A stretch of 64,000 bases of DNA from Bdellovibrionales bacterium (lineage in GTDB: Bacteria > Bdellovibrionota > Bdellovibrionia > Bdellovibrionales > JAKFYE01): contig OZ220494.1 in NCBI GenBank assembly GCA_965116215.1, positions 384,841-448,840 on the forward strand. The letters are read 5' to 3'. Shown here piece after piece: positions 27,585 through 59,649 of this stretch (the stretch's first letter is position 1; every line of letters starts with the position of its first letter). Both the position numbers and the translations under genes were made by a program. Under the pieces are notes generated by a model, which saw only the letters and a program-made list of their open reading frames with translations, was not told where the DNA came from and did no database searches.

Positions 27585-28015
27585 GTCCAATAGAATTTTT
27601 ATTGATACTGGGTAATAAACAGATTTGTACTTTTATTCAATCGTCTACAAATAGTTGATGATTTCTCTAAATGACTTCTCAGAAATTTGGGAACAGATGA
27701 AAATTTGTACTTTCCAATGAGTGTAAACCCTATCAAAAAGCCCTTAAGTTCTCTTGAGTCTAAGTTTTTTAAAATAATGCTTGAAGTGGCTACCTTACAA
27801 AAAGGGATTATTTTAGTGAACTGAGTTGATTTCTTATGCAGGATATAATATTTCCTATTCTTTTGAAATCATCTCTAAGTTTTGGAAGACTATTGTAAAT
27901 CTTCAGTAAATCTTTGACTGGATAGGACCAGCGATGTTTAATCTTGTGAGGATCATCCAAGGCTATTTTAAAAATCCAAATATGGGTGATGTTTATAATC
28001 AATGAGGAGGTCTAT

Positions 28016-28690
28016 ATGAAATTGGAAATAAGGTCATTTAAAAAGCCTATGGTGTTAGCTAATACTGTCTTACTTTTCGTTGTTTGCTTCTGGTCTTCCT
28101 TGTCTTATGGGGCTAATGAAAAGTCAGAAGATTTTAAACAGACTGAAGCAGCGGCAAGGGAGGGGCATCCAGAGGCACAACATAGACTTGGTATGATGTA
28201 TGTTGCAGGAGAAGATGTTAAAATAGATTTTAAAAAGGCTTTTCAATGGTTTGAAGCAGCTGCAAAGCAAGGTTATGCAACGGCTCAGCATGGTCTTGGT
28301 ATTATGTATTATAGCGGTGAGGGGGTTGAAAGAGATTTTCAAAAGGCCATTTCATGGGTGAGAGCAGCAGCAAAACAGGGGGATAGGAATGCACAGCATG
28401 ATCTTGCTGTCATTTATAGTAAAGGAGAAGCTGTTCCAAGAGATCCTAAAAAAGCGGCCAAGTGGCTTAAAGCAGCAGTAATGAAAGGTCATGCGAGTGC
28501 CGAATATTTACTGGGTTTGGCTTATTTTGCAGGAGAAGGGGTTGAAAGAGATTTTAACAAAGGTTTGGCATGGGTTGAATCAGCAGCAAGACAAGGGCAT
28601 GTAGAGGCCATCGCTCTTCTTGAGGAGATCCATATGGAACGGTCAGAAAGAGCATTGATAGGAGAATACGACTACGATGAGTGTTATTAA
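28016..28690 (+). CDS. secreted Sel1-like repeat (SLR) protein, paralogue 1
   Basis: GAGGAGG lies 6 nt before the ATG at 28016. Signal peptide ...LLFVVCFWSSLSYG/ANEKSE. Five or six A.Q..LG.MY..GEGV..D..KA..W...AA.QG repeats. Ends ...DYDECY. Confidence 0.88.
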   Translation: MKLEIRSFKKPMVLANTVLLFVVCFWSSLSYGANEKSEDFKQTEAAAREGHPEAQHRLGMMYVAGEDVKIDFKKAFQWFEAAAKQGYATAQHGLGIMYYSGEGVERDFQKAISWVRAAAKQGDRNAQHDLAVIYSKGEAVPRDPKKAAKWLKAAVMKGHASAEYLLGLAYFAGEGVERDFNKGLAWVESAARQGHVEAIALLEEIHMERSERALIGEYDYDECY

Positions 28691-28996: not shown

Positions 28997-29767
28997 TCAT
29001 TTTTTGCAAAGTCGGTCTATTTTAGTTGTGTAGTGAGGATAGGAAATCAATCCAATACCTTTAATATTTCTTCTTATGTTTCTGAAACGAGGCTTAAGCA
29101 TATTGAAGTATATATCATTTTTTCCTTTTACAGCAGAAGCAACGCTACCAGCTACATAGTCCGCTATTTGTATCAATGGATTATGGGATTCAAAAGAAAA
29201 ATAAATAGAAGGTTCTAATAAGCTAAGTACGACAGGTGTTTTAATTGGGGAACTCCAATTTTTTGAGTGAAGAGTAGCTGTTTCCTTCCGGATGTTATAA
29301 TATGTTTCGCTAAATGGAAGTGCTTCTTCCTTTCCCGGATAAGCTAATATTATAGAACCTCTGTGTTTGCCAGAAGATTGTCTTTCTGACATAAAAAATT
29401 CAAGTCTTACAGATAAGTCATTTATAAGTTGGGAGGCCATTTTAGTAAAACTTAAACTTTTCGTTCCGTCATAGTATGCGCTTATTAAAGTAACTTCAGA
29501 AGAAGAAATAAGAGAAACAACTTTTTTACGAAATTTATTTTGGTCTTTTATATTTTTTTGTGCAATATATCTTTTATTATTTCTCGGATTAAATTTTATT
29601 GGGTCAAAAGGATTTAATTTAAAATTCTTTTTTAGTTTAAAAAGTTCTTCTATTAGAGAGTCTTCAGCAGACTCTTCAATAATAAGCCCACCCCATACCA
29701 TATATTTTGGTTTATTACGATTTCCACCCCACTTACTATCATCTAAGTAGAGGGTATATAAGCTCAC
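28997..29767 (-). CDS. DUF3800-like protein
   Basis: N-terminal LYLDDS acidic motif and C-terminal LIQIADYVAGSV motif, as I recall for DUF3800. The GTG start overlaps the upstream TAG stop by 1 nt. Confidence 0.6.
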   Translation of the reverse strand: MSLYTLYLDDSKWGGNRNKPKYMVWGGLIIEESAEDSLIEELFKLKKNFKLNPFDPIKFNPRNNKRYIAQKNIKDQNKFRKKVVSLISSSEVTLISAYYDGTKSLSFTKMASQLINDLSVRLEFFMSERQSSGKHRGSIILAYPGKEEALPFSETYYNIRKETATLHSKNWSSPIKTPVVLSLLEPSIYFSFESHNPLIQIADYVAGSVASAVKGKNDIYFNMLKPRFRNIRRNIKGIGLISYPHYTTKIDRLCKK

Positions 29768-30141
29768 TAAGGTATCATCAAAGTTGAGGGTTTTTTATCA
29801 GCCCATTCTTTTTTAAAATCTGGCCGAGAGGAAGGCTTTTCTTGAGATACTGGCTTCAATGGAGGTGTTGGCAATTTAACAAAACTTTTAGGTATTTTTG
29901 TTGAAGGAAAAACGGGGTGACATTTTCCATTTGCATTTTTCACAAAACCAACACATTTTCCGCTCAAATCTCTTAAAATCCCGTCATCAAACCATCCTCT
30001 TTGAGTGCCATTAAAATCATGCACTCTATCTTTTTCTATGTATCCTGCATATATGTTATGCCTACAACTTGCTAGGTAATCTTTTCTTACAATTCTTAAT
30101 GAAGGTGTACCTTTTCGGTCAAAAATTACATCTTTCATCAT
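29767..30141 (-). CDS. 4-fold beta-flower-like small protein with Pro/Lys-rich tail
   Basis: Repeated hairpin-like units (VIFDRKGTP, NIYAGYIEKDRVHDFNGTQRGWFDDGILRDLSGKCVGFV) are followed by PSTKIPKSFVKLPTPPLKPV...EWADKKP. This resembles the '4-fold beta flower' family architecture as I recall it. No SD is visible upstream. Confidence 0.45.
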   Translation of the reverse strand: MMKDVIFDRKGTPSLRIVRKDYLASCRHNIYAGYIEKDRVHDFNGTQRGWFDDGILRDLSGKCVGFVKNANGKCHPVFPSTKIPKSFVKLPTPPLKPVSQEKPSSRPDFKKEWADKKPSTLMIP

Positions 30142-30444
30142 TTATTATAATAATAGATTTTCTAATCAGAGTCAAATTAGTTGATTATTGGCTTTTTTGG
30201 GTATTTATAGTGTATTGTTGTAGTATATTCATTTACCTAATAATTAGAAACCTATCAATAAGGAAAGGCTCTTTTTATTGTCCAGGCTTTTTAAGCTAAA
30301 GAAGTTTCTGTTCTGTGAAATAATATTTATACCTAATTTTTATATTAACATTTAGACTTTCATTATTCCGTCTTTTTAAGACATTATTCTGTAGTTTATC
30401 TTTGAATTTTTTATACTTTTTAGTCAATAAGATACTTAAACTAA

Positions 30445-30957
30445 GTTTTTCACATTTTACTGCTACTTTATCTTCTTGGATATGAAAAATGGTCTAATTT
30501 TTAGAGGGTTATTTCTAAAGCACAAACAGCTTGTGAAAATTCTGGGCATAAAATATCAGACCATTTTGCCGGCGTCGGCAAAATGATTCATCTTGGTTCA
30601 GAAAGTAACAGAGAGGTGTTTGATATGATGCTGACTCGTTATGCCTGTTATTTAATCGCTCAAAATGGTGATTCACAAAAAGAGGAAGTTGCTTTTGTTC
30701 AAACTTATTTTGCTATTCAAATGAGAAAGTTTGAAATTATCCAACAACGACTTTTAGAATCAGAAAGGGTATCAGCTAGAAAGAAATTGGCTGACATGGA
30801 AAAAGAGCTTTCAGGTATTATTTATGAGCAAATTGGAAGTGATAAAAATTTTAGACATATAGAGCAGAGAGTAACTCAAAGGTATGCAAAGGCTGTTGCT
30901 CTTTTGAGTTCAGATGTAGGAGAGAAAACATCTTCATTATTTGATACGGCTAAGTAA
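30445..30957 (+). pseudogene. dinD: decayed DNA-damage-inducible protein D (dinD-like) remnant
   Basis: The frame reads ..LLGYEKWSNF*RVISKAQTACENSGHKISDHFAGVGKMIHLGS...MLTRYACYLIAQNGD..VAFVQTYFAIQMRKFE, matching the DinD core as I recall it. There is an in-frame TAG at 30502-30504. No intact N-terminus remains, and the C-terminal half diverges and is truncated after ...GIIYE. Confidence 0.6.
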
Positions 30958-31043: not shown

Positions 31044-31120
<77 letters not shown>

Positions 31121-57330: not shown

Positions 57331-58343
57331 TTATTCTCTTCATGTTTCCTCTCCCAGTACAGGGCTTTTTGAAGATCTTTAAAAACACCAAACCTATACA
57401 TTTCACTAAGAATATCTTGAGCCCTCTTATGCCCCTGCTCTGCTAGGGCTTCATACAACTCCAAAGCTTTTTGAGGATCTTTTTTAACCCCCTTGCCTTG
57501 TTGATACATTAAAGCCAAATGATATTGAGCATGTATATGCCCCTGTTTTGCTGCAGCTTCAAACCACTTAAAAGATTTAATATTTTCATTATTATAATAT
57601 CTCGAGCCAAGGTCATACTGAGCCTTGCTATTTCCCTCCCTTGCCGCTGTTTCAATCTGTTTATCAAAGCTTAGTTGCTCCTGAGCTGCCTTATACCCTT
57701 GGTCTGCTGCTTTTTGAAACCAATAATGAGCCTTTCGAAGATCTCTTTCAACTCCCAGTCCCATATCATACAGTTGAGCAACTCTATATTGAGCTCTACT
57801 ATGCCCCTGCTGTGCTGCCTTCTCATACCATTTAACAGCCCTTTGATGATCTCGACCGACAAGGTTTTTTCCTAAATGATATATATCAGCAAGCTTAAAT
57901 TGAGCATTTACATCACCTCGTTCTGCTCGGGTTTCAATCATATTAACGCTTTGTTGAAGTACAGATTGAGCTGGCTTATACCCTTGGTCTGCTGCTTTTT
58001 GAAACCAATAATGAGCCTTTTGAAGATCTCTTTCAACTCCCAGTCCCAGACTATACAGTTCAGCAACTCTATACTGAGCATCTATATGCCCCTGCTGTGC
58101 TGCCTTCTCATACCATTTAACAGCCCTTTGATGATCTTGACCGACAAGGTTTTTTCCTAAATGATATATATCAGCAAGCTTAAATTGAGCATTTACATCA
58201 CCTTGTTTTGCTTGAGCTTCAAGTTGCTTCAAATTTTCTGAGTTTTCATTAGCCCCATAAGATAAAGGAGCAGAAAAACAAATAGCAAAAAGTAAGGCCA
58301 TCTTGGTTAAAGCTAAAGACTTTAGAAATGGTTTTGGTTTCAT
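57318..58343 (-). CDS. secreted Sel1-like repeat protein, paralogue 2 (contains 285-bp tandem duplication)
   Basis: AAAGGAGCC RBS. Signal peptide ...ALLFAICFSAPLSYG/ANENSE. About 8 Sel1 units. Ends ...ENKRCY. Confidence 0.9.
   Translation of the reverse strand: MKPKPFLKSLALTKMALLFAICFSAPLSYGANENSENLKQLEAQAKQGDVNAQFKLADIYHLGKNLVGQDHQRAVKWYEKAAQQGHIDAQYRVAELYSLGLGVERDLQKAHYWFQKAADQGYKPAQSVLQQSVNMIETRAERGDVNAQFKLADIYHLGKNLVGRDHQRAVKWYEKAAQQGHSRAQYRVAQLYDMGLGVERDLRKAHYWFQKAADQGYKAAQEQLSFDKQIETAAREGNSKAQYDLGSRYYNNENIKSFKWFEAAAKQGHIHAQYHLALMYQQGKGVKKDPQKALELYEALAEQGHKRAQDILSEMYRFGVFKDLQKALYWERKHEENKRCY
57630..58205. repeat. ~285-bp tandem duplication (2 copies) within the Sel1 gene
   Basis: For example, cctaaatgatatatatcagcaagcttaaattgagcatttacatcacc occurs at 57871 and at 58156 (offset 285). 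The protein units GDVNAQFKLADIYHLGKNLVG.DHQRAVKWYEKAAQQGH... are repeated with a few substitutions. Boundaries are approximate. Confidence 0.85.
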
Positions 58344-58560
58344 GTTAAAGGCTCCTTTGTGTATGTGGGCATTATGCCGCTCATATTCTGATTTTTAAAA
58401 TAGCTAATGTTGTTATCTTAAAACAAGGCGAATTTTGTTCTCCTATTCATGTACGTAAGGAGCAAATGCTATGCCAGCTGAATAGATTCATCTTTTATGT
58501 TAATATCTTTTAAAAAAAAGAGTGTTGAACTTCCACTTAAAAGAGGCTAAGTTATTGTTA

Positions 58561-58673: not shown

Positions 58674-58869
58674 AAACTGAGAAAAAATTATACATTCTAT
58701 AAACTTTATTACATTTTTTTATAATTTAAAATAGTTCCTTTGCATCTAAGTTTCAGTTTTATAAGGGTATATATATTTGTGGTGGTTCATAGCTGTTAAA
58801 TTGACTTTTAGAGGAGTTAACTTTACTAGTTATGGATCATTTGCATATATAGGCAAAGGAGCCTTTAAC

Positions 58870-59649
58870 ATGAAACTAAAACCATTTCTAAAGCCTATAG
58901 TCTTCGCCCATATGGCCTTACTTTTTGCTGTTTGTTTTTCTGCTCCTTTATCTTATGGGGCCAATGAAAAGCCAGAAAGTTTTAAGCAGCTTGAAGTCCG
59001 AGCAAAGCAGGGAGATGTAGATGCTCAATATGAGCTTGGTAGCATGTATCATAAAGGGGAAAGGGTCTTAAAAGATTTTCAAAAGGCTTTGAAATGGTTT
59101 AAAAAGGCAGCAAGCGGGGGGCATCCAGCAGCTCAAAATGAGCTTGGTATGATATATGCTAATGGAGAAGGACTTATTACTAAAAGATATCATCCTCTGA
59201 TAATTAAAAGATATCATCTACAGGCTCAGTATTGGTTTAAAAAGGCAGCAAAGCAGGGGAATATAAATGCTCAACATAACCTTGGTTATATGTACACTGA
59301 AGGATATACTTCTGACGCAGGTTGGGTTATCCGCCGAGATTATCGTATTAAAAGAAATCTTCGAAAGGCTTTTTATTGGTATGAGAAGGCAGCAAGCGGG
59401 GGGCATCCACTGGCTCAATATAAACTTGGTCTACTGTATTATTACGGAATGGAGGGGAAGAAACTATTGCTGTTAGAAGATTTTTCACTAGCTTTTTATT
59501 GGTTTAAAAAGGCAGCAAAGCAGGGGCATAGAGGAGCTCAATATGAGGTATCTGGAATGTACGATAAAGGGGAGGGGGTTGAAAAAGATCCTCAGAAAGC
59601 CCTGCACTGGCGGAGGAAAGCGGAACAGAGTAAGGAACGGTGTTATTAA
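58870..59649 (+). CDS. secreted Sel1-like repeat protein, paralogue 3
   Basis: The ATG at 58870 has the same RBS context as paralogue 2 (CAAAGGAGCCTTTAACATGAAAC). Signal peptide ...ALLFAVCFSAPLSYG/ANEKPE. Ends ...SKERCY. The track ORF has 31 extra upstream codons. Confidence 0.88.
   Translation: MKLKPFLKPIVFAHMALLFAVCFSAPLSYGANEKPESFKQLEVRAKQGDVDAQYELGSMYHKGERVLKDFQKALKWFKKAASGGHPAAQNELGMIYANGEGLITKRYHPLIIKRYHLQAQYWFKKAAKQGNINAQHNLGYMYTEGYTSDAGWVIRRDYRIKRNLRKAFYWYEKAASGGHPLAQYKLGLLYYYGMEGKKLLLLEDFSLAFYWFKKAAKQGHRGAQYEVSGMYDKGEGVEKDPQKALHWRRKAEQSKERCY

What the first reader, a model, noticed from the sequence alone, without database searches (positions are those of the whole stretch)
28997..30141. 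Translationally coupled beta-flower-like + DUF3800-like gene pair: candidate uncharacterised two-gene (defence/toxin-type) module
Seen:
- A 124-aa protein has repeated beta-hairpin-like units and a Pro/Lys-rich tail.
- A 256-aa protein has an N-terminal acidic LYLDDS motif and a C-terminal IQIADYVAG motif.
- The upstream TAG and downstream GTG share one nucleotide, so the two are almost certainly co-translated.
- Both genes are intact, while the neighbouring dinD is decayed. This argues for selection on the pair.

Established (from memory): DUF3800 and '4-fold beta flower' are families without assigned function.

Inference: a small intact operon, in a tRNA-linked islet, next to a stress-gene relic, fits the usual context of phage-defence or abortive-infection cassettes. 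I know of no described system with this composition.
Basis: partly seen in the sequence, partly recalled or inferred. Interest (0 to 1): 0.65.

Follow-up and report, generated by a model that had tools for sequence, protein, structure and literature searches.

The report
Conserved beta-flower plus DUF3800 nuclease pair
Two back-to-back genes, a small "beta-flower" barrel protein and a predicted RNase H-type nuclease, form a unit that recurs in many unrelated bacteria next to restriction enzymes and other anti-phage genes, so it is a credible but untested new phage-defence module.

Summary
On the minus strand a 124-aa Bflower protein (PF21784, E=2e-19) and a 256-aa DUF3800 protein (PF12686, E=2e-9) are joined by TAGTG, sharing one G. 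A promoter invariant across loci sits directly upstream.

The pair is a real unit:
- Bflower lies directly upstream of DUF3800 in 19 distinct loci, with a 1-nt overlap or a gap of at most 4 nt wherever measured.
- This holds down to about 28% DUF3800 identity.
- Both genes are under purifying selection (dN/dS about 0.2) and co-diverge (Mantel r=0.97).

Flanking genes differ at every locus. They are mostly R-M systems, TIR/Thoeris-like genes, AbiE, GmrSD, toxin-antitoxin genes, Fic, integrases or tRNA genes. In the window the pair lies in a roughly 3.3-kb islet at the 3' end of tRNA-Asp, beside a DinD fragment fused to an integrase 3'-end relic.

The link is subfamily-specific, not family-wide. 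The nearest other Bflower clade pairs with YfhO membrane proteins, and remoter DUF3800s sit alone inside R-M operons.

Best reading is a mobile defence or abortive-infection module with DUF3800 as nuclease effector and Bflower as co-translated partner. No function was tested. I found no description of this pair in the PADLOC library or in the papers searched.

The parts
30147..30175 (-). Promoter of the pair, TTGACT-17 nt-TATTAT. The -10 hexamer ends 5 nt before the ATG, so the mRNA is probably leaderless (inference).
   Evidence: The consensus scan gives 10 of 12 matches. The TTGA of the -35 hexamer and most of the -10 region (TTATTAT) are invariant in an alignment of 9 loci, while sequence further upstream is unrelated in most of them.
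29767..30141 (-). Bflower gene, 124 aa. A 4-fold beta-flower barrel (residues about 5-66) is followed by a conserved extended tail, PPLKPVSQE...EWADK.P.TLMIP.
   Evidence: Pfam PF21784, E=2.3e-19. AlphaFold2 model with pLDDT 87.7 and 8 strands. 23 close homologues, all PF21784. dN/dS median 0.21.
29765..29769 (-). TAGTG stop/start junction; the two codons share the G at 29767. This implies translational coupling.
   Evidence: Read from the sequence. In the 13 Bdellovibrionales-type loci measured the junction is a 1-nt overlap or a gap of 0-2 nt. In the distant loci the gap is 1-4 nt or a 1-nt overlap.
28997..29767 (-). DUF3800 gene, 256 aa, GTG start. Predicted RNase H-fold nuclease and the putative effector.
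   Evidence: Pfam PF12686, E=2.1e-9. AlphaFold2 model with pLDDT 82.9. Foldseek matches are a viral DUF3800 (TM 0.72), then RNase H, NurA, EndoV and Argonaute PIWI, all weakly. The MSLYT N-terminus is conserved in homologues, which confirms the GTG start. dN/dS median 0.20.
29738..29743 (-). Codons D9-D10 of the YLDDS motif (putative metal-binding carboxylates on strand 1).
   Evidence: The second Asp is invariant across a 19-sequence alignment that reaches 22-30% identity. PMC7736814 describes a DE motif at the N-terminus of DUF3800.
29159..29170 (-). Codons Q200-I-A-D203, the DUF3800 QxxD motif.
   Evidence: Q is nearly invariant; A and D are invariant in the wide alignment. The motif is named in PMC7736814.
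30583..30867 (+). DinD (DNA-damage-inducible protein D) fragment, covering only positions 72-172 of the 288-position NCBIfam DinD model.
   Evidence: NCBIfam PRK11525 at 110 bits against a cut-off of 242. PADLOC PDC-S13, E=1.7e-35, also partial. phrog_8036, partial.
30856..30957 (+). Relic of the last ~30 codons of a tyrosine integrase gene, fused in frame to the DinD fragment. It ends 86 nt from the 3' end of tRNA-Asp.
   Evidence: tblastn gives 47-53% identity to the C-termini of the intact Phage_integrase proteins that sit next to the pair in L003 and L004. The match includes the ...KYAK... catalytic-Tyr region.
31044..31120 (-). tRNA-Asp (GTC). Its 3' end faces the islet and is the likely integration target of the former island.
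   Evidence: ARAGORN and Rfam tRNA at 73 bits. tRNA genes also lie within about 1 kb of the pair in L001, L011, L012 and L013.

Best explanation
The two genes form a self-contained, horizontally mobile module of about 1.2 kb: promoter, Bflower gene, DUF3800 gene. It most likely works as an anti-phage or abortive-infection system.

DUF3800 is the effector. It is a basic protein (pI about 9-10) with a predicted RNase H-fold and intact D-D...QxxD catalytic motifs.

Bflower is made from the same mRNA by termination-reinitiation at the TAGTG junction. This would favour coupled production of the two proteins, and I propose that they form a complex in which Bflower acts as the sensing or controlling subunit. 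It would keep the nuclease silent or untargeted until infection.

Shown here:
- the gene structure and the coupling;
- the family membership;
- conservation as a unit, purifying selection and co-divergence;
- a variable insertion context rich in defence and mobile-element genes.

Inferred, not shown:
- nuclease activity and its substrate;
- physical interaction of the two proteins;
- which partner senses what;
- any phage phenotype.
For: 1. Unit conservation. Bflower lies directly upstream of DUF3800 in 19 distinct loci.
- Thirteen loci are of the Bdellovibrionales type.
- Six are distant metagenomic loci where DUF3800 is only 26-30% identical.
- Nine more contigs carry both genes, judged by matching contig lengths.

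2. Coupling. Every junction measured is a 1-nt overlap or a gap of at most 4 nt.

3. Selection. dN/dS is about 0.2 for both genes. Their distance matrices co-vary, Mantel r=0.97, with 0 of 5000 permutations reaching it.

4. Mobility and dispensability.
- No flanking synteny exists between loci.
- Conservation starts about 35-85 nt upstream and stops within 30 nt downstream.
- There are deletion relics in L009 and L010.
- Integrases lie beside the pair in L003 and L004, and an integrase relic lies by tRNA-Asp in the window.

5. Defence context.
- Type I R-M plus SocA (L002).
- ThsB_TIR, Nmad2, MazG_C and HMUDK_hel (L001).
- AbiEi/AbiEii, SNIPE/T5orf172 and Fic (L011).
- ParE and Gp49 (L013).
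- TIR_2 and GmrSD (L004).
- ThsB_TIR plus 8xMP (L009).
- In the distant loci the pair sits on the same strand and closely spaced, downstream of ResIII or methylase/endonuclease genes.
- Remote DUF3800s are embedded within type I and type III R-M operons.

6. Effector plausibility.
- Fold matches to a viral DUF3800, RNase H and NurA.
- Invariant D and QxAD residues.
- Literature predictions of an RNase H-fold nuclease used by type VII retrons and by Cas12a2/a3 loci (PMC7736814, PMC10910872, PMC13594972, PMC12669027).

7. Precedent for the partner. Cernunnos, a single-gene PF21784 cassette, gave phage resistance experimentally (bioRxiv 10.1101/2024.07.02.601686).
Against: - There is no experimental datum for this pair.
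- Defence context is guilt by association, and I could not compute a background rate.
- L008 and L014 have mostly housekeeping neighbours. In the window, the genes outside the roughly 3.3-kb islet are housekeeping too.
- The closest non-paired Bflower clade sits upstream of a YfhO-family membrane protein in a syntenic, apparently chromosomal context. The beta-flower is therefore not intrinsically a defence domain.
- An intact DUF3800 of the same subfamily (L033) and remoter ones lack any Bflower. Bflower is therefore not an obligatory subunit of this nuclease type.
- Structural similarity to solved nucleases is weak: best PDB E=7e-3, TM no higher than 0.35 normalised to the query.
- Only two acidic residues are invariant across the wider family, so catalysis is not assured.
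- PADLOC gives only a weak partial hit, PDC-M04A at 21.7 bits.
Confidence: 0.55

Rival explanations
1. The pair is a classical type II toxin-antitoxin (addiction) module. DUF3800 is a constitutively toxic nuclease. Bflower is its labile protein antitoxin, encoded upstream and made in step with it. The main role is stabilising the island it rides on, not defending against phage.
For: - The layout is a small upstream gene translationally coupled to a larger downstream enzyme.
- The pair sits on islands with integrases, IS elements and other toxin-antitoxin genes.
- The decay pattern fits loss of the toxin first. L009 keeps an intact Bflower while DUF3800 has lost residues 33-215. No Bdellovibrionales-type locus keeps DUF3800 without Bflower.
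- Other DUF3800 genes are paired with 11 different ncRNA motifs (PMC5737381). I read this, as my own inference, as a possible variety of neutralisers.
Against: - An intact DUF3800 with its catalytic motifs exists with no Bflower, behind its own terminator and promoter, in L033. Remoter DUF3800s sit alone within R-M operons. A constitutive toxin should not survive alone.
- Bflower has no recognisable DNA-binding domain of the kind typical of autoregulating type II antitoxins.
- Its nearest relatives partner a non-toxin, YfhO.
- Cernunnos, a Bflower protein, acts alone in defence.
- The charge of Bflower varies widely (pI 4.6-9.9), so there is no consistent acidic nucleic-acid mimic.
Confidence: 0.2
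2. The pair is an accessory of restriction-modification systems. One version is a latent back-up nuclease triggered when a phage disables the neighbouring R-M system, on the model of the PrrC anticodon nuclease in the EcoprrI locus. Another is a nuclease that processes restriction products. Copies standing alone, as in this window, would then be orphans left after the R-M genes were lost.
For: - In the distant loci the pair follows R-M genes on the same strand, with a 1-nt or 4-nt overlap or a gap of at most 112 nt.
  - L026: BsaWI-like endonuclease, C5 methylase, Vsr, then Bflower overlapping Vsr by 1 nt.
  - L031: methylase, then DUF6996/6997, then the pair.
  - L024, L030, L032: a ResIII protein, then the pair.
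- Remote DUF3800s lie between hsdM and hsdS (L037), between mod and res (L039), and between a methylase and hsdS (L040).
- L002 has a complete type I R-M system just upstream.
- The DinD fragment in the window also matches PADLOC's type I specificity-subunit model.
Against: - In Bdellovibrionales the pair has its own invariant promoter.
- It occurs without any R-M gene within 6-10 kb in most loci of that clade.
- The R-M types involved are heterogeneous (I, II, III, IV). That fits general defence-island clustering better than a specific partnership.
- The PrrC analogy comes from memory of the literature and was not tested here.
Confidence: 0.12
3. The pair has no conflict role. It is a nucleic-acid housekeeping or mobile-element maintenance function, for example removing RNA primers or R-loops for an integrative element. 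Its position in islands would reflect only where accessory genes accumulate.
For: - RNase H-like enzymes commonly serve replication and repair, and the non-family fold matches are RNase H, NurA and EndoV.
- Some loci (L008, L014) and the window's wider surroundings are housekeeping.
- Bflower relatives occur in a stable chromosomal YfhO-SIR2-RND neighbourhood.
Against: - Distribution is patchy and the position is different in every genome.
- The pair is repeatedly lost by deletion.
- It is absent from the phage, plasmid and IMG/VR collections searched, which argues against a role in element replication.
- The recurrent company of R-M, TIR, Abi and GmrSD genes is typical of defence genes.
Confidence: 0.08

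Closest known systems
Cernunnos, an anti-phage cassette of the Vibrio cholerae superintegron (Darracq et al., bioRxiv 10.1101/2024.07.02.601686)
   Same: [quoted passage not shown] It is small, is carried by mobile or variable DNA, and was shown experimentally to give phage resistance.
   Different: Cernunnos is a single-gene system with no DUF3800 partner, and its mechanism is unknown. It is reported from Vibrio, Escherichia prophages and Bacteroidota, not Bdellovibrionales.
Type VII retrons (reverse transcriptase + ncRNA + DUF3800 protein or fused domain; Mestre et al. 2020, PMC7736814)
   Same: A DUF3800 protein serves as the presumed nuclease effector of a compact defence-type module, and it needs a second component.
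   Different: There is no reverse transcriptase and no ncRNA here. According to that paper the retron DUF3800s lack the Q of the QxxD motif, whereas the window protein has Q200-x-x-D203. The partner here is a protein of a different fold.
TPR-DUF3800 accessory proteins of Cas12a2/Cas12a3 and some type VI-F loci (PMC10910872, PMC13594972, PMC12669027)
   Same: A DUF3800 RNase H-fold domain is combined with a non-catalytic protein-interaction module and is encoded in immunity loci.
   Different: In those proteins the partner module (TPR) is fused and the locus is CRISPR-Cas. Here the partner is a separate beta-flower protein, and no cas genes or arrays are nearby. The adjacent Sel1 (TPR-like) gene at 27986..28690 converges on the pair, appears from its N-terminal sequence to carry a signal peptide, and is absent from every other locus.
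DUF3800 genes associated with DUF3800-I to -XI structured RNA motifs (Weinberg et al. 2017, PMC5737381)
   Same: A stand-alone DUF3800 gene is tied to one specific, conserved neighbour of unknown role.
   Different: No such RNA motif was found near the pair: not at E<=10 in window 24-36 kb, and not at gathering score in 15 related loci. Conserved non-coding DNA is limited to a promoter. A protein takes the neighbour's place.
PADLOC candidate system PDC-M04 (component A)
   Same: Component A is DUF3800-like and gives the only PADLOC hit.
   Different: The hit is weak and partial (21.7 bits, residues 2-60). Distant pair members score no better. No PADLOC model matches Bflower. I could not find the composition of PDC-M04 in the papers searched.
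Genes embedded in R-M operons, such as the PrrC anticodon nuclease in EcoprrI (from memory of the literature)
   Same: Relatives of this DUF3800 occupy slots within type I and type III R-M operons, and the pair often trails R-M genes.
   Different: There is no sequence or fold relationship to PrrC. The window copy has its own promoter and no R-M neighbour.

Membership tests
Pfam PF21784 Bflower (4-fold beta-flower) | HMM score above the curated gathering threshold | tested here: met
   70.3 bits against a cut-off of 25, E=2.3e-19, covering profile positions 2-111 of 116. The 5-fold model PF21785 scores below its cut-off.
Pfam PF21784 Bflower (4-fold beta-flower) | Eight short antiparallel strands forming four hairpin 'petals' (Durairaj et al. 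2023, PMC10584680) | tested here: met
   The AlphaFold2 model has 8 strands between residues 5 and 66, mean pLDDT 87.7. There is no PDB fold neighbour (best E=4.7), as expected for the fold described as new.
Pfam PF21784 Bflower (4-fold beta-flower) | Semi-conserved [DNEQ]xxG motif at hairpin tips | tested here: met
   The motif is read from the sequence at D8-R-K-G11, D42-F-N-G45 and D58-L-S-G61, that is three of four hairpins. G11 and G61 are invariant, and D42 and G45 nearly invariant, among homologues.
Pfam PF12686 DUF3800 | HMM score above the curated gathering threshold | tested here: met
   38.7 bits against a cut-off of 21, E=2.1e-9, covering profile positions 2-147 of 149.
Pfam PF12686 DUF3800 | N-terminal acidic D[DE] motif and C-terminal QxxD motif (as described in PMC7736814) | tested here: met
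   YLDDS (D9, D10) and IQIAD (Q200, D203) are present. In a 19-sequence alignment reaching 22-30% identity the second D and the A-D are invariant and the Q is nearly invariant.
Pfam PF12686 DUF3800 | RNase H-like fold | tested here: inconclusive
   The model has pLDDT 82.9. The best BFVD hit is a viral DUF3800 (TM 0.72-0.76), followed by many RNase H proteins at E=0.02-1. PDB hits are NurA, RNase H1 (prob 0.98), EndoV and Argonaute PIWI, but E>=7e-3 and TM is at most 0.35 normalised to the query. The results are consistent in kind but weak in score.
Cernunnos defence system | Sequence homology to the V. cholerae Cernunnos protein, beyond sharing a Pfam domain | not testable with these tools
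   The Cernunnos sequence is not in the held text or in any searchable collection. Only the shared PF21784 domain is known.
Cernunnos defence system | Single-gene system that is sufficient on its own | tested here: not met
   Here Bflower is always coupled to DUF3800. The paper states that all systems except Sucellos and Toutatis have one gene.
Type VII retron | Adjacent reverse transcriptase and msr/msd ncRNA | tested here: not met
   No RT ORF or RT Pfam hit was found among the neighbours examined, either in the window or in related loci. There is no Rfam retron or DUF3800 RNA hit.
Type II toxin-antitoxin system | Upstream antitoxin with a DNA-binding domain, and a toxin that cannot persist without it | tested here: not met
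   Bflower gives no HTH, RHH or AbrB hit. Intact DUF3800 relatives exist without Bflower. Toxicity itself cannot be tested with these tools.
PADLOC PDC-M04 | Full-length match to component A, plus the other components of the system | tested here: not met
   Only residues 2-60 match, at 21.7 bits. No PADLOC model matches Bflower.
tRNA-targeting integrative island | Tyrosine integrase next to the 3' end of a tRNA gene, with a duplicated att site | tested here: inconclusive
   Only a relic of the last ~30 integrase codons remains, 86 nt from the 3' end of tRNA-Asp. No second copy of the tRNA 3' end of 10 nt or more lies nearby. Intact integrases of the same type flank the pair in L003 and L004.

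The most novel reading that the evidence does not exclude
Beta-flower proteins are a new class of small, modular sensor or adaptor subunits that plug into different output proteins. Three arrangements are seen:
- a DUF3800 RNase H-fold nuclease (this pair);
- a YfhO-type membrane protein;
- nothing at all (Cernunnos).

On this reading the Bflower-DUF3800 pair is a new, phylogenetically widespread anti-phage system. It would often work as a second line behind restriction-modification. The beta-flower would recognise a phage-derived cue and release or direct the nuclease.
Probability: 0.3. Interest if true: 0.75.

Novelty: new variant of a known kind. Interest (0 to 1): 0.6.

Why it matters
The beta-flower fold was described only in 2023 and has no known biochemical function. 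Its single functional lead is one phage-resistance phenotype, Cernunnos. DUF3800 appears repeatedly in immunity loci (type VII retrons, Cas12a2/a3, some type VI-F loci) and beside 11 unexplained ncRNA motifs, yet its activity has never been shown.

This pair ties the two together in a minimal unit of 1.2 kb with its own promoter, which is easy to clone and test. A positive result would do three things:
- add a new two-gene defence system;
- give the beta-flower fold its first mechanistic partner;
- provide a simple system for defining what DUF3800 nucleases cut, which bears on the retron and CRISPR accessory cases.

The strong linkage of this DUF3800 subfamily to R-M operons is itself a testable lead on layered immunity. 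The host lineage, small-genome Bdellovibrionales known only from MAGs, has essentially no characterised defence repertoire.

Tried and rejected
- Rfam search for DUF3800-associated RNA motifs. Nothing was found in window 24-36 kb at E<=10, and nothing at gathering score in 15 related loci. This subfamily is therefore not of the ncRNA-linked kind.
- Searches for phage or plasmid carriage. There were no relatives in IMG/VR, in GenBank phages or PLSDB plasmids, or in PHROGs. The one weak Klebsiella-phage hit (E=0.05) lies antisense to the annotated genes and is spurious.
- First JGI metagenome scan with the Bflower alignment found nothing. The second scan, with distant DUF3800 sequences, succeeded. 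Alignment A6 was too divergent to seed a scan.
- Idea that the Pro/Lys-rich Bflower tail is a DUF3800-docking peptide. Rejected as specific evidence, because YfhO-linked relatives have the same PP.(K/E)P...W(S/A) tail. AlphaFold2 models the tail confidently, so it may be part of the fold.
- Idea that the adjacent Sel1 (TPR-like) gene mirrors the TPR-DUF3800 fusions. Rejected, because it is absent from all other loci and converges on the pair.
- Idea that the 288-aa gene upstream of the pair in L002 is an intact DinD. It does not match the window's DinD fragment by tblastn and has no Pfam hit on record.
- Inverted repeat around the -35 element as a possible operator. It is not conserved across loci (my reading of the alignment).
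- Search for an att duplicate of the tRNA-Asp 3' end found none.
- Sequence search of the PDB with both family profiles gave no relatives.
- Prediction of the two-protein complex was not possible. 
Full report
**1. What is in the window**

Two ORFs lie on the minus strand. One runs 30141..29767 (124 aa, ATG). The other runs 29767..28997 (256 aa, GTG). The DNA at the junction reads ATACCTTAGTGAGC, so the TAG stop and the GTG start share the G at 29767.

- The 124-aa protein matches Pfam PF21784, the 4-fold beta-flower, at E=2.3e-19 (70 bits, cut-off 25).
- The 256-aa protein matches PF12686, DUF3800, at E=2.1e-9 (38.7 bits, cut-off 21).
- All full-length homologues begin MSLYT or a close variant, which confirms the GTG start.

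AlphaFold2 models were built with 23-sequence alignments.

- Bflower has eight short strands (residues 5-66), followed by a confidently modelled extended Pro/Lys-rich tail. Mean pLDDT is 87.7.
- DUF3800 has an alternating strand/helix domain, with mean pLDDT 82.9.
- The DUF3800 model's best structural match is a viral DUF3800 protein (TM 0.72-0.76).
- All other matches are weak but of one kind: RNase H, NurA, EndoV and Argonaute PIWI.
- Bflower has no neighbour in the PDB. This agrees with its description as a new fold (PMC10584680).

**2. Signals around the genes**

A TTGACT-17-TATTAT promoter lies at 30175..30147 on the minus strand. Its -35 core and -10 region are invariant in nine loci whose upstream sequences are otherwise unrelated.

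The -10 hexamer ends five bases before the ATG, and there is no Shine-Dalgarno sequence. I infer that the transcript is leaderless or nearly so. DUF3800 also has no ribosome-binding site of its own. The junction stays at a 1-nt overlap or a 0-2-nt gap in all 13 Bdellovibrionales-type loci measured. In the distant loci the gap is 1-4 nt or a 1-nt overlap. Translational coupling is therefore a conserved property, not an accident of this genome.

**3. The pair is a conserved unit**

Word-seeded searches of 5.8 billion proteins found only about 24 close relatives of each protein. A scan of 185,579 species genomes placed them all in small (1.4-2.2 Mb) Bdellovibrionales MAGs.

Bflower lies directly upstream of DUF3800 in every locus recovered from this clade: the window, L001, L002, L003, L004, L006, L008, L011-L014, L023 and the contig carrying P0024. 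Nine further contigs carry both genes, judged by matching contig lengths.

A full HMMER pass over 1.84 billion representative proteins found 210 DUF3800 relatives at E<=1e-3. I fetched loci for a distant group, only 26-30% identical to the window protein, and scanned them with my own Bflower HMM.

- A 120-123-aa Bflower ORF lies directly upstream in L024, L026/L027, L029, L030, L031 and L032.
- That is every locus of this group with upstream DNA, except L033.

Both genes are under purifying selection. Median pairwise dN/dS is 0.21 for Bflower and 0.20 for DUF3800. Their pairwise distance matrices are strongly correlated, Mantel r=0.97, and none of 5000 permutations reached that value. The two genes are inherited together and diverge together.

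**4. The linkage is subfamily-specific**

- The nearest Bflower relatives outside the paired clade (31-36% identity) are never next to DUF3800. They sit directly upstream of a 950-1007-aa membrane protein that matches the YfhO family in most of these contigs. A SIR2 protein follows, and in three of the four groups an RND-pump adaptor, in four independent contig groups.
- These relatives share the PP.(K/E)P...W(S/A) tail. The tail is therefore a general feature of the domain, not a DUF3800-specific docking peptide.
- L033 carries an intact DUF3800 of the same subfamily with no Bflower, behind its own terminator and promoter.
- Remoter DUF3800s (20-27% identity) also lack Bflower.

**5. Mobility and genomic context**

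None of the window's neighbours (AhpC, OxyR, Sel1, arginase-family, QueG) appears near the pair in any other genome. Conservation between loci begins 35-85 nt upstream of the ATG and ends within about 30 nt of the DUF3800 stop. The conserved unit is thus about 1.2 kb.

The pair can also be lost.

- In L009, DUF3800 has lost residues 33-215 while Bflower remains intact.
- In L010, both genes are gutted. What is left is the -35 box, the last ten Bflower codons and fragments of DUF3800.

tRNA genes lie within about 1 kb of the pair in the window, L001, L011, L012 and L013. Intact tyrosine integrases flank the pair in L003 and L004.

The ORF at 30583..30957 in the window is a chimera.

- Residues 1-95 are a fragment of DinD, covering model positions 72-172 of 288. 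They also match PADLOC PDC-S13.
- Residues 92-121 match the C-terminal end of the L003 and L004 integrases, including the catalytic-tyrosine region.
- This relic ends 86 nt from the 3' end of tRNA-Asp.

The window copy therefore sits in a decayed integrative islet of about 3.3 kb, within a region that is otherwise housekeeping.

**6. Neighbours are mostly defence genes**

In the Bdellovibrionales loci:

| Locus | Neighbouring genes |
|---|---|
| L002 | type I R-M with SocA/Panacea |
| L001 | ThsB_TIR, Nmad2, MazG_C, HMUDK_hel |
| L011 | AbiEi/AbiEii, SNIPE/T5orf172, Fic |
| L012 | helicase + DUF559/MTES_1575, IS3, Fic |
| L013 | ParE, Gp49, DNA methylase |
| L004 | TIR_2, GmrSD, integrase |
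| L009 | ThsB_TIR + 8xMP |
| L023 | IS3 |

In the distant loci the pair lies on the same strand and closely spaced, downstream of R-M genes:

- ResIII-type proteins in L024, L030 and L032;
- a methylase plus DUF6996/6997 in L031;
- a BsaWI-like endonuclease, a C5 methylase and Vsr in L026, where Bflower overlaps vsr by one base.

The remote Bflower-less DUF3800s sit inside R-M operons:

- HsdM-DUF3800-HsdS-Mrr in L037;
- Mod-x-DUF3800-Res in L039;
- methylase-DUF3800-HsdS in L040.

L008 and L014 are exceptions with mainly housekeeping neighbours. I could not compute a background rate, so the enrichment is qualitative, though it is striking.

**7. How it most likely works**

The literature consistently predicts that DUF3800 is an RNase H-fold nuclease. 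It occurs as the effector partner of type VII retrons (PMC7736814). It occurs as a TPR-fused accessory of Cas12a2/a3 and some type VI-F loci (PMC10910872, PMC13594972, PMC12669027). It also occurs beside eleven different structured RNAs (PMC5737381).

In the window protein the signature residues are intact. Across the wider family the second Asp of DDS and the Ala-Asp of QxAD are invariant and the Gln nearly so, as are several Lys and Arg residues. The protein is uniformly basic, with pI 8.5-9.8.

The only functional datum for Bflower is Cernunnos. This single-gene PF21784 cassette from the V. cholerae superintegron gave phage resistance (bioRxiv 10.1101/2024.07.02.601686).

I therefore favour a two-component defence or abortive-infection module. 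DUF3800 is the nuclease effector. Bflower is its co-translated sensor or controller (confidence 0.55). The activity, the substrate, the physical interaction and the phenotype are all inferred.

Rivals:

- A plain type II toxin-antitoxin pair is the main rival (0.2). The gene order, the coupling and the L009 decay pattern support it. Stand-alone intact DUF3800 genes weaken it, as does the lack of a DNA-binding domain in Bflower.
- An R-M-dependent accessory or back-up nuclease (0.12) fits the operon data from the distant loci. It does not fit the autonomous promoter or the R-M-free loci in Bdellovibrionales.
- A non-conflict housekeeping role (0.08) fits poorly with the patchy, mobile, deletion-prone distribution.

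**8. Novelty**

No PADLOC model covers Bflower. DUF3800 gives only a weak, partial hit to candidate PDC-M04A. Full-text searches for beta-flower, Bflower, PF21784, PF12686 and DUF3800 returned no paper describing this pair. That library does not cover most subscription journals.

Both families have separately been implicated in immunity. I therefore class the finding as a new variant of a known kind, namely a compact nuclease-based defence module, and not as categorically new. It is well supported as a conserved genetic unit and is directly testable.

Noticed in passing
L016 6001-9276; L017 6001-9438; L019 6001-9444; L020 6001-9429: A second conserved Bflower pairing. A 128-182-aa Bflower protein sits directly upstream of a 950-1007-aa membrane protein that matches YfhO (PF09586) in three of the four groups (only faintly in L017, and with no Pfam hit on record in L016). 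A 268-aa SIR2 protein follows in all four contig groups and an RND-pump adaptor in three of them. Some of these Bflower proteins carry long Lys-rich C-terminal extensions. The function is unknown. It suggests that beta-flower proteins are general partner subunits.
   Followed up: partly
L037 2433-7151; L039 1669-7326; L040 1936-6213: Stand-alone DUF3800 genes (20-27% identical to the P0084 group) are embedded within R-M operons: HsdM-DUF3800-HsdS-Mrr_cat, Mod-107 aa-DUF3800-Res, and methylase-DUF3800-HsdS. Start and stop codons overlap or abut.
   Followed up: partly
window 30856-30957 (+): The last ~30 codons of the 'dinD' ORF are in fact a relic of the 3' end of a tyrosine integrase gene, fused in frame to the DinD fragment, 86 nt from tRNA-Asp. 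A similar integrase-end relic lies next to tRNA-Ala in L004 (20077-20160).
   Followed up: yes
window 30560-30587: A 28-nt near-perfect palindrome (ATCATTTTGCCGACGCCGGCAAAATGGT; 12 pairs, 5 of them G-C) lies exactly at the start of the DinD fragment ORF. It scores as a bidirectional terminator-like hairpin. It may mark the breakpoint that truncated dinD.
   Followed up: no
window 27986-28690 (+), 57348-58349 (-) and 58864-59640 (+): There are several Sel1-repeat (TPR-like) paralogues in the window. The one beside the pair appears from its N-terminal sequence to carry a signal peptide, and two further copies lie at 57-60 kb. None is linked to the pair in other genomes.
   Followed up: partly
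L009 10372-11230 (-): A ThsB-type TIR protein (138 aa) overlaps an 8xMP octameric membrane protein (149 aa) immediately downstream of the decayed pair. This looks like a compact TIR plus membrane-effector module.
   Followed up: no
L011 13238-14392; L012 15723-16211; L026 5250-6338; L031 5339-5761: Fic/DOC-domain proteins recur within 1-7 kb downstream of the pair in four otherwise unrelated loci, in L031 with an HTH_17 partner. This may be chance within defence islands, or a real association.
   Followed up: no
L016 3991-5768 (-): An AAA_15/AAA_21 ATPase (385 aa) with a DUF4276 protein (162 aa) lies just upstream of the YfhO-linked Bflower gene. The combination looks like an OLD/Gabija-type defence pair (my reading, from memory).
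   Followed up: no
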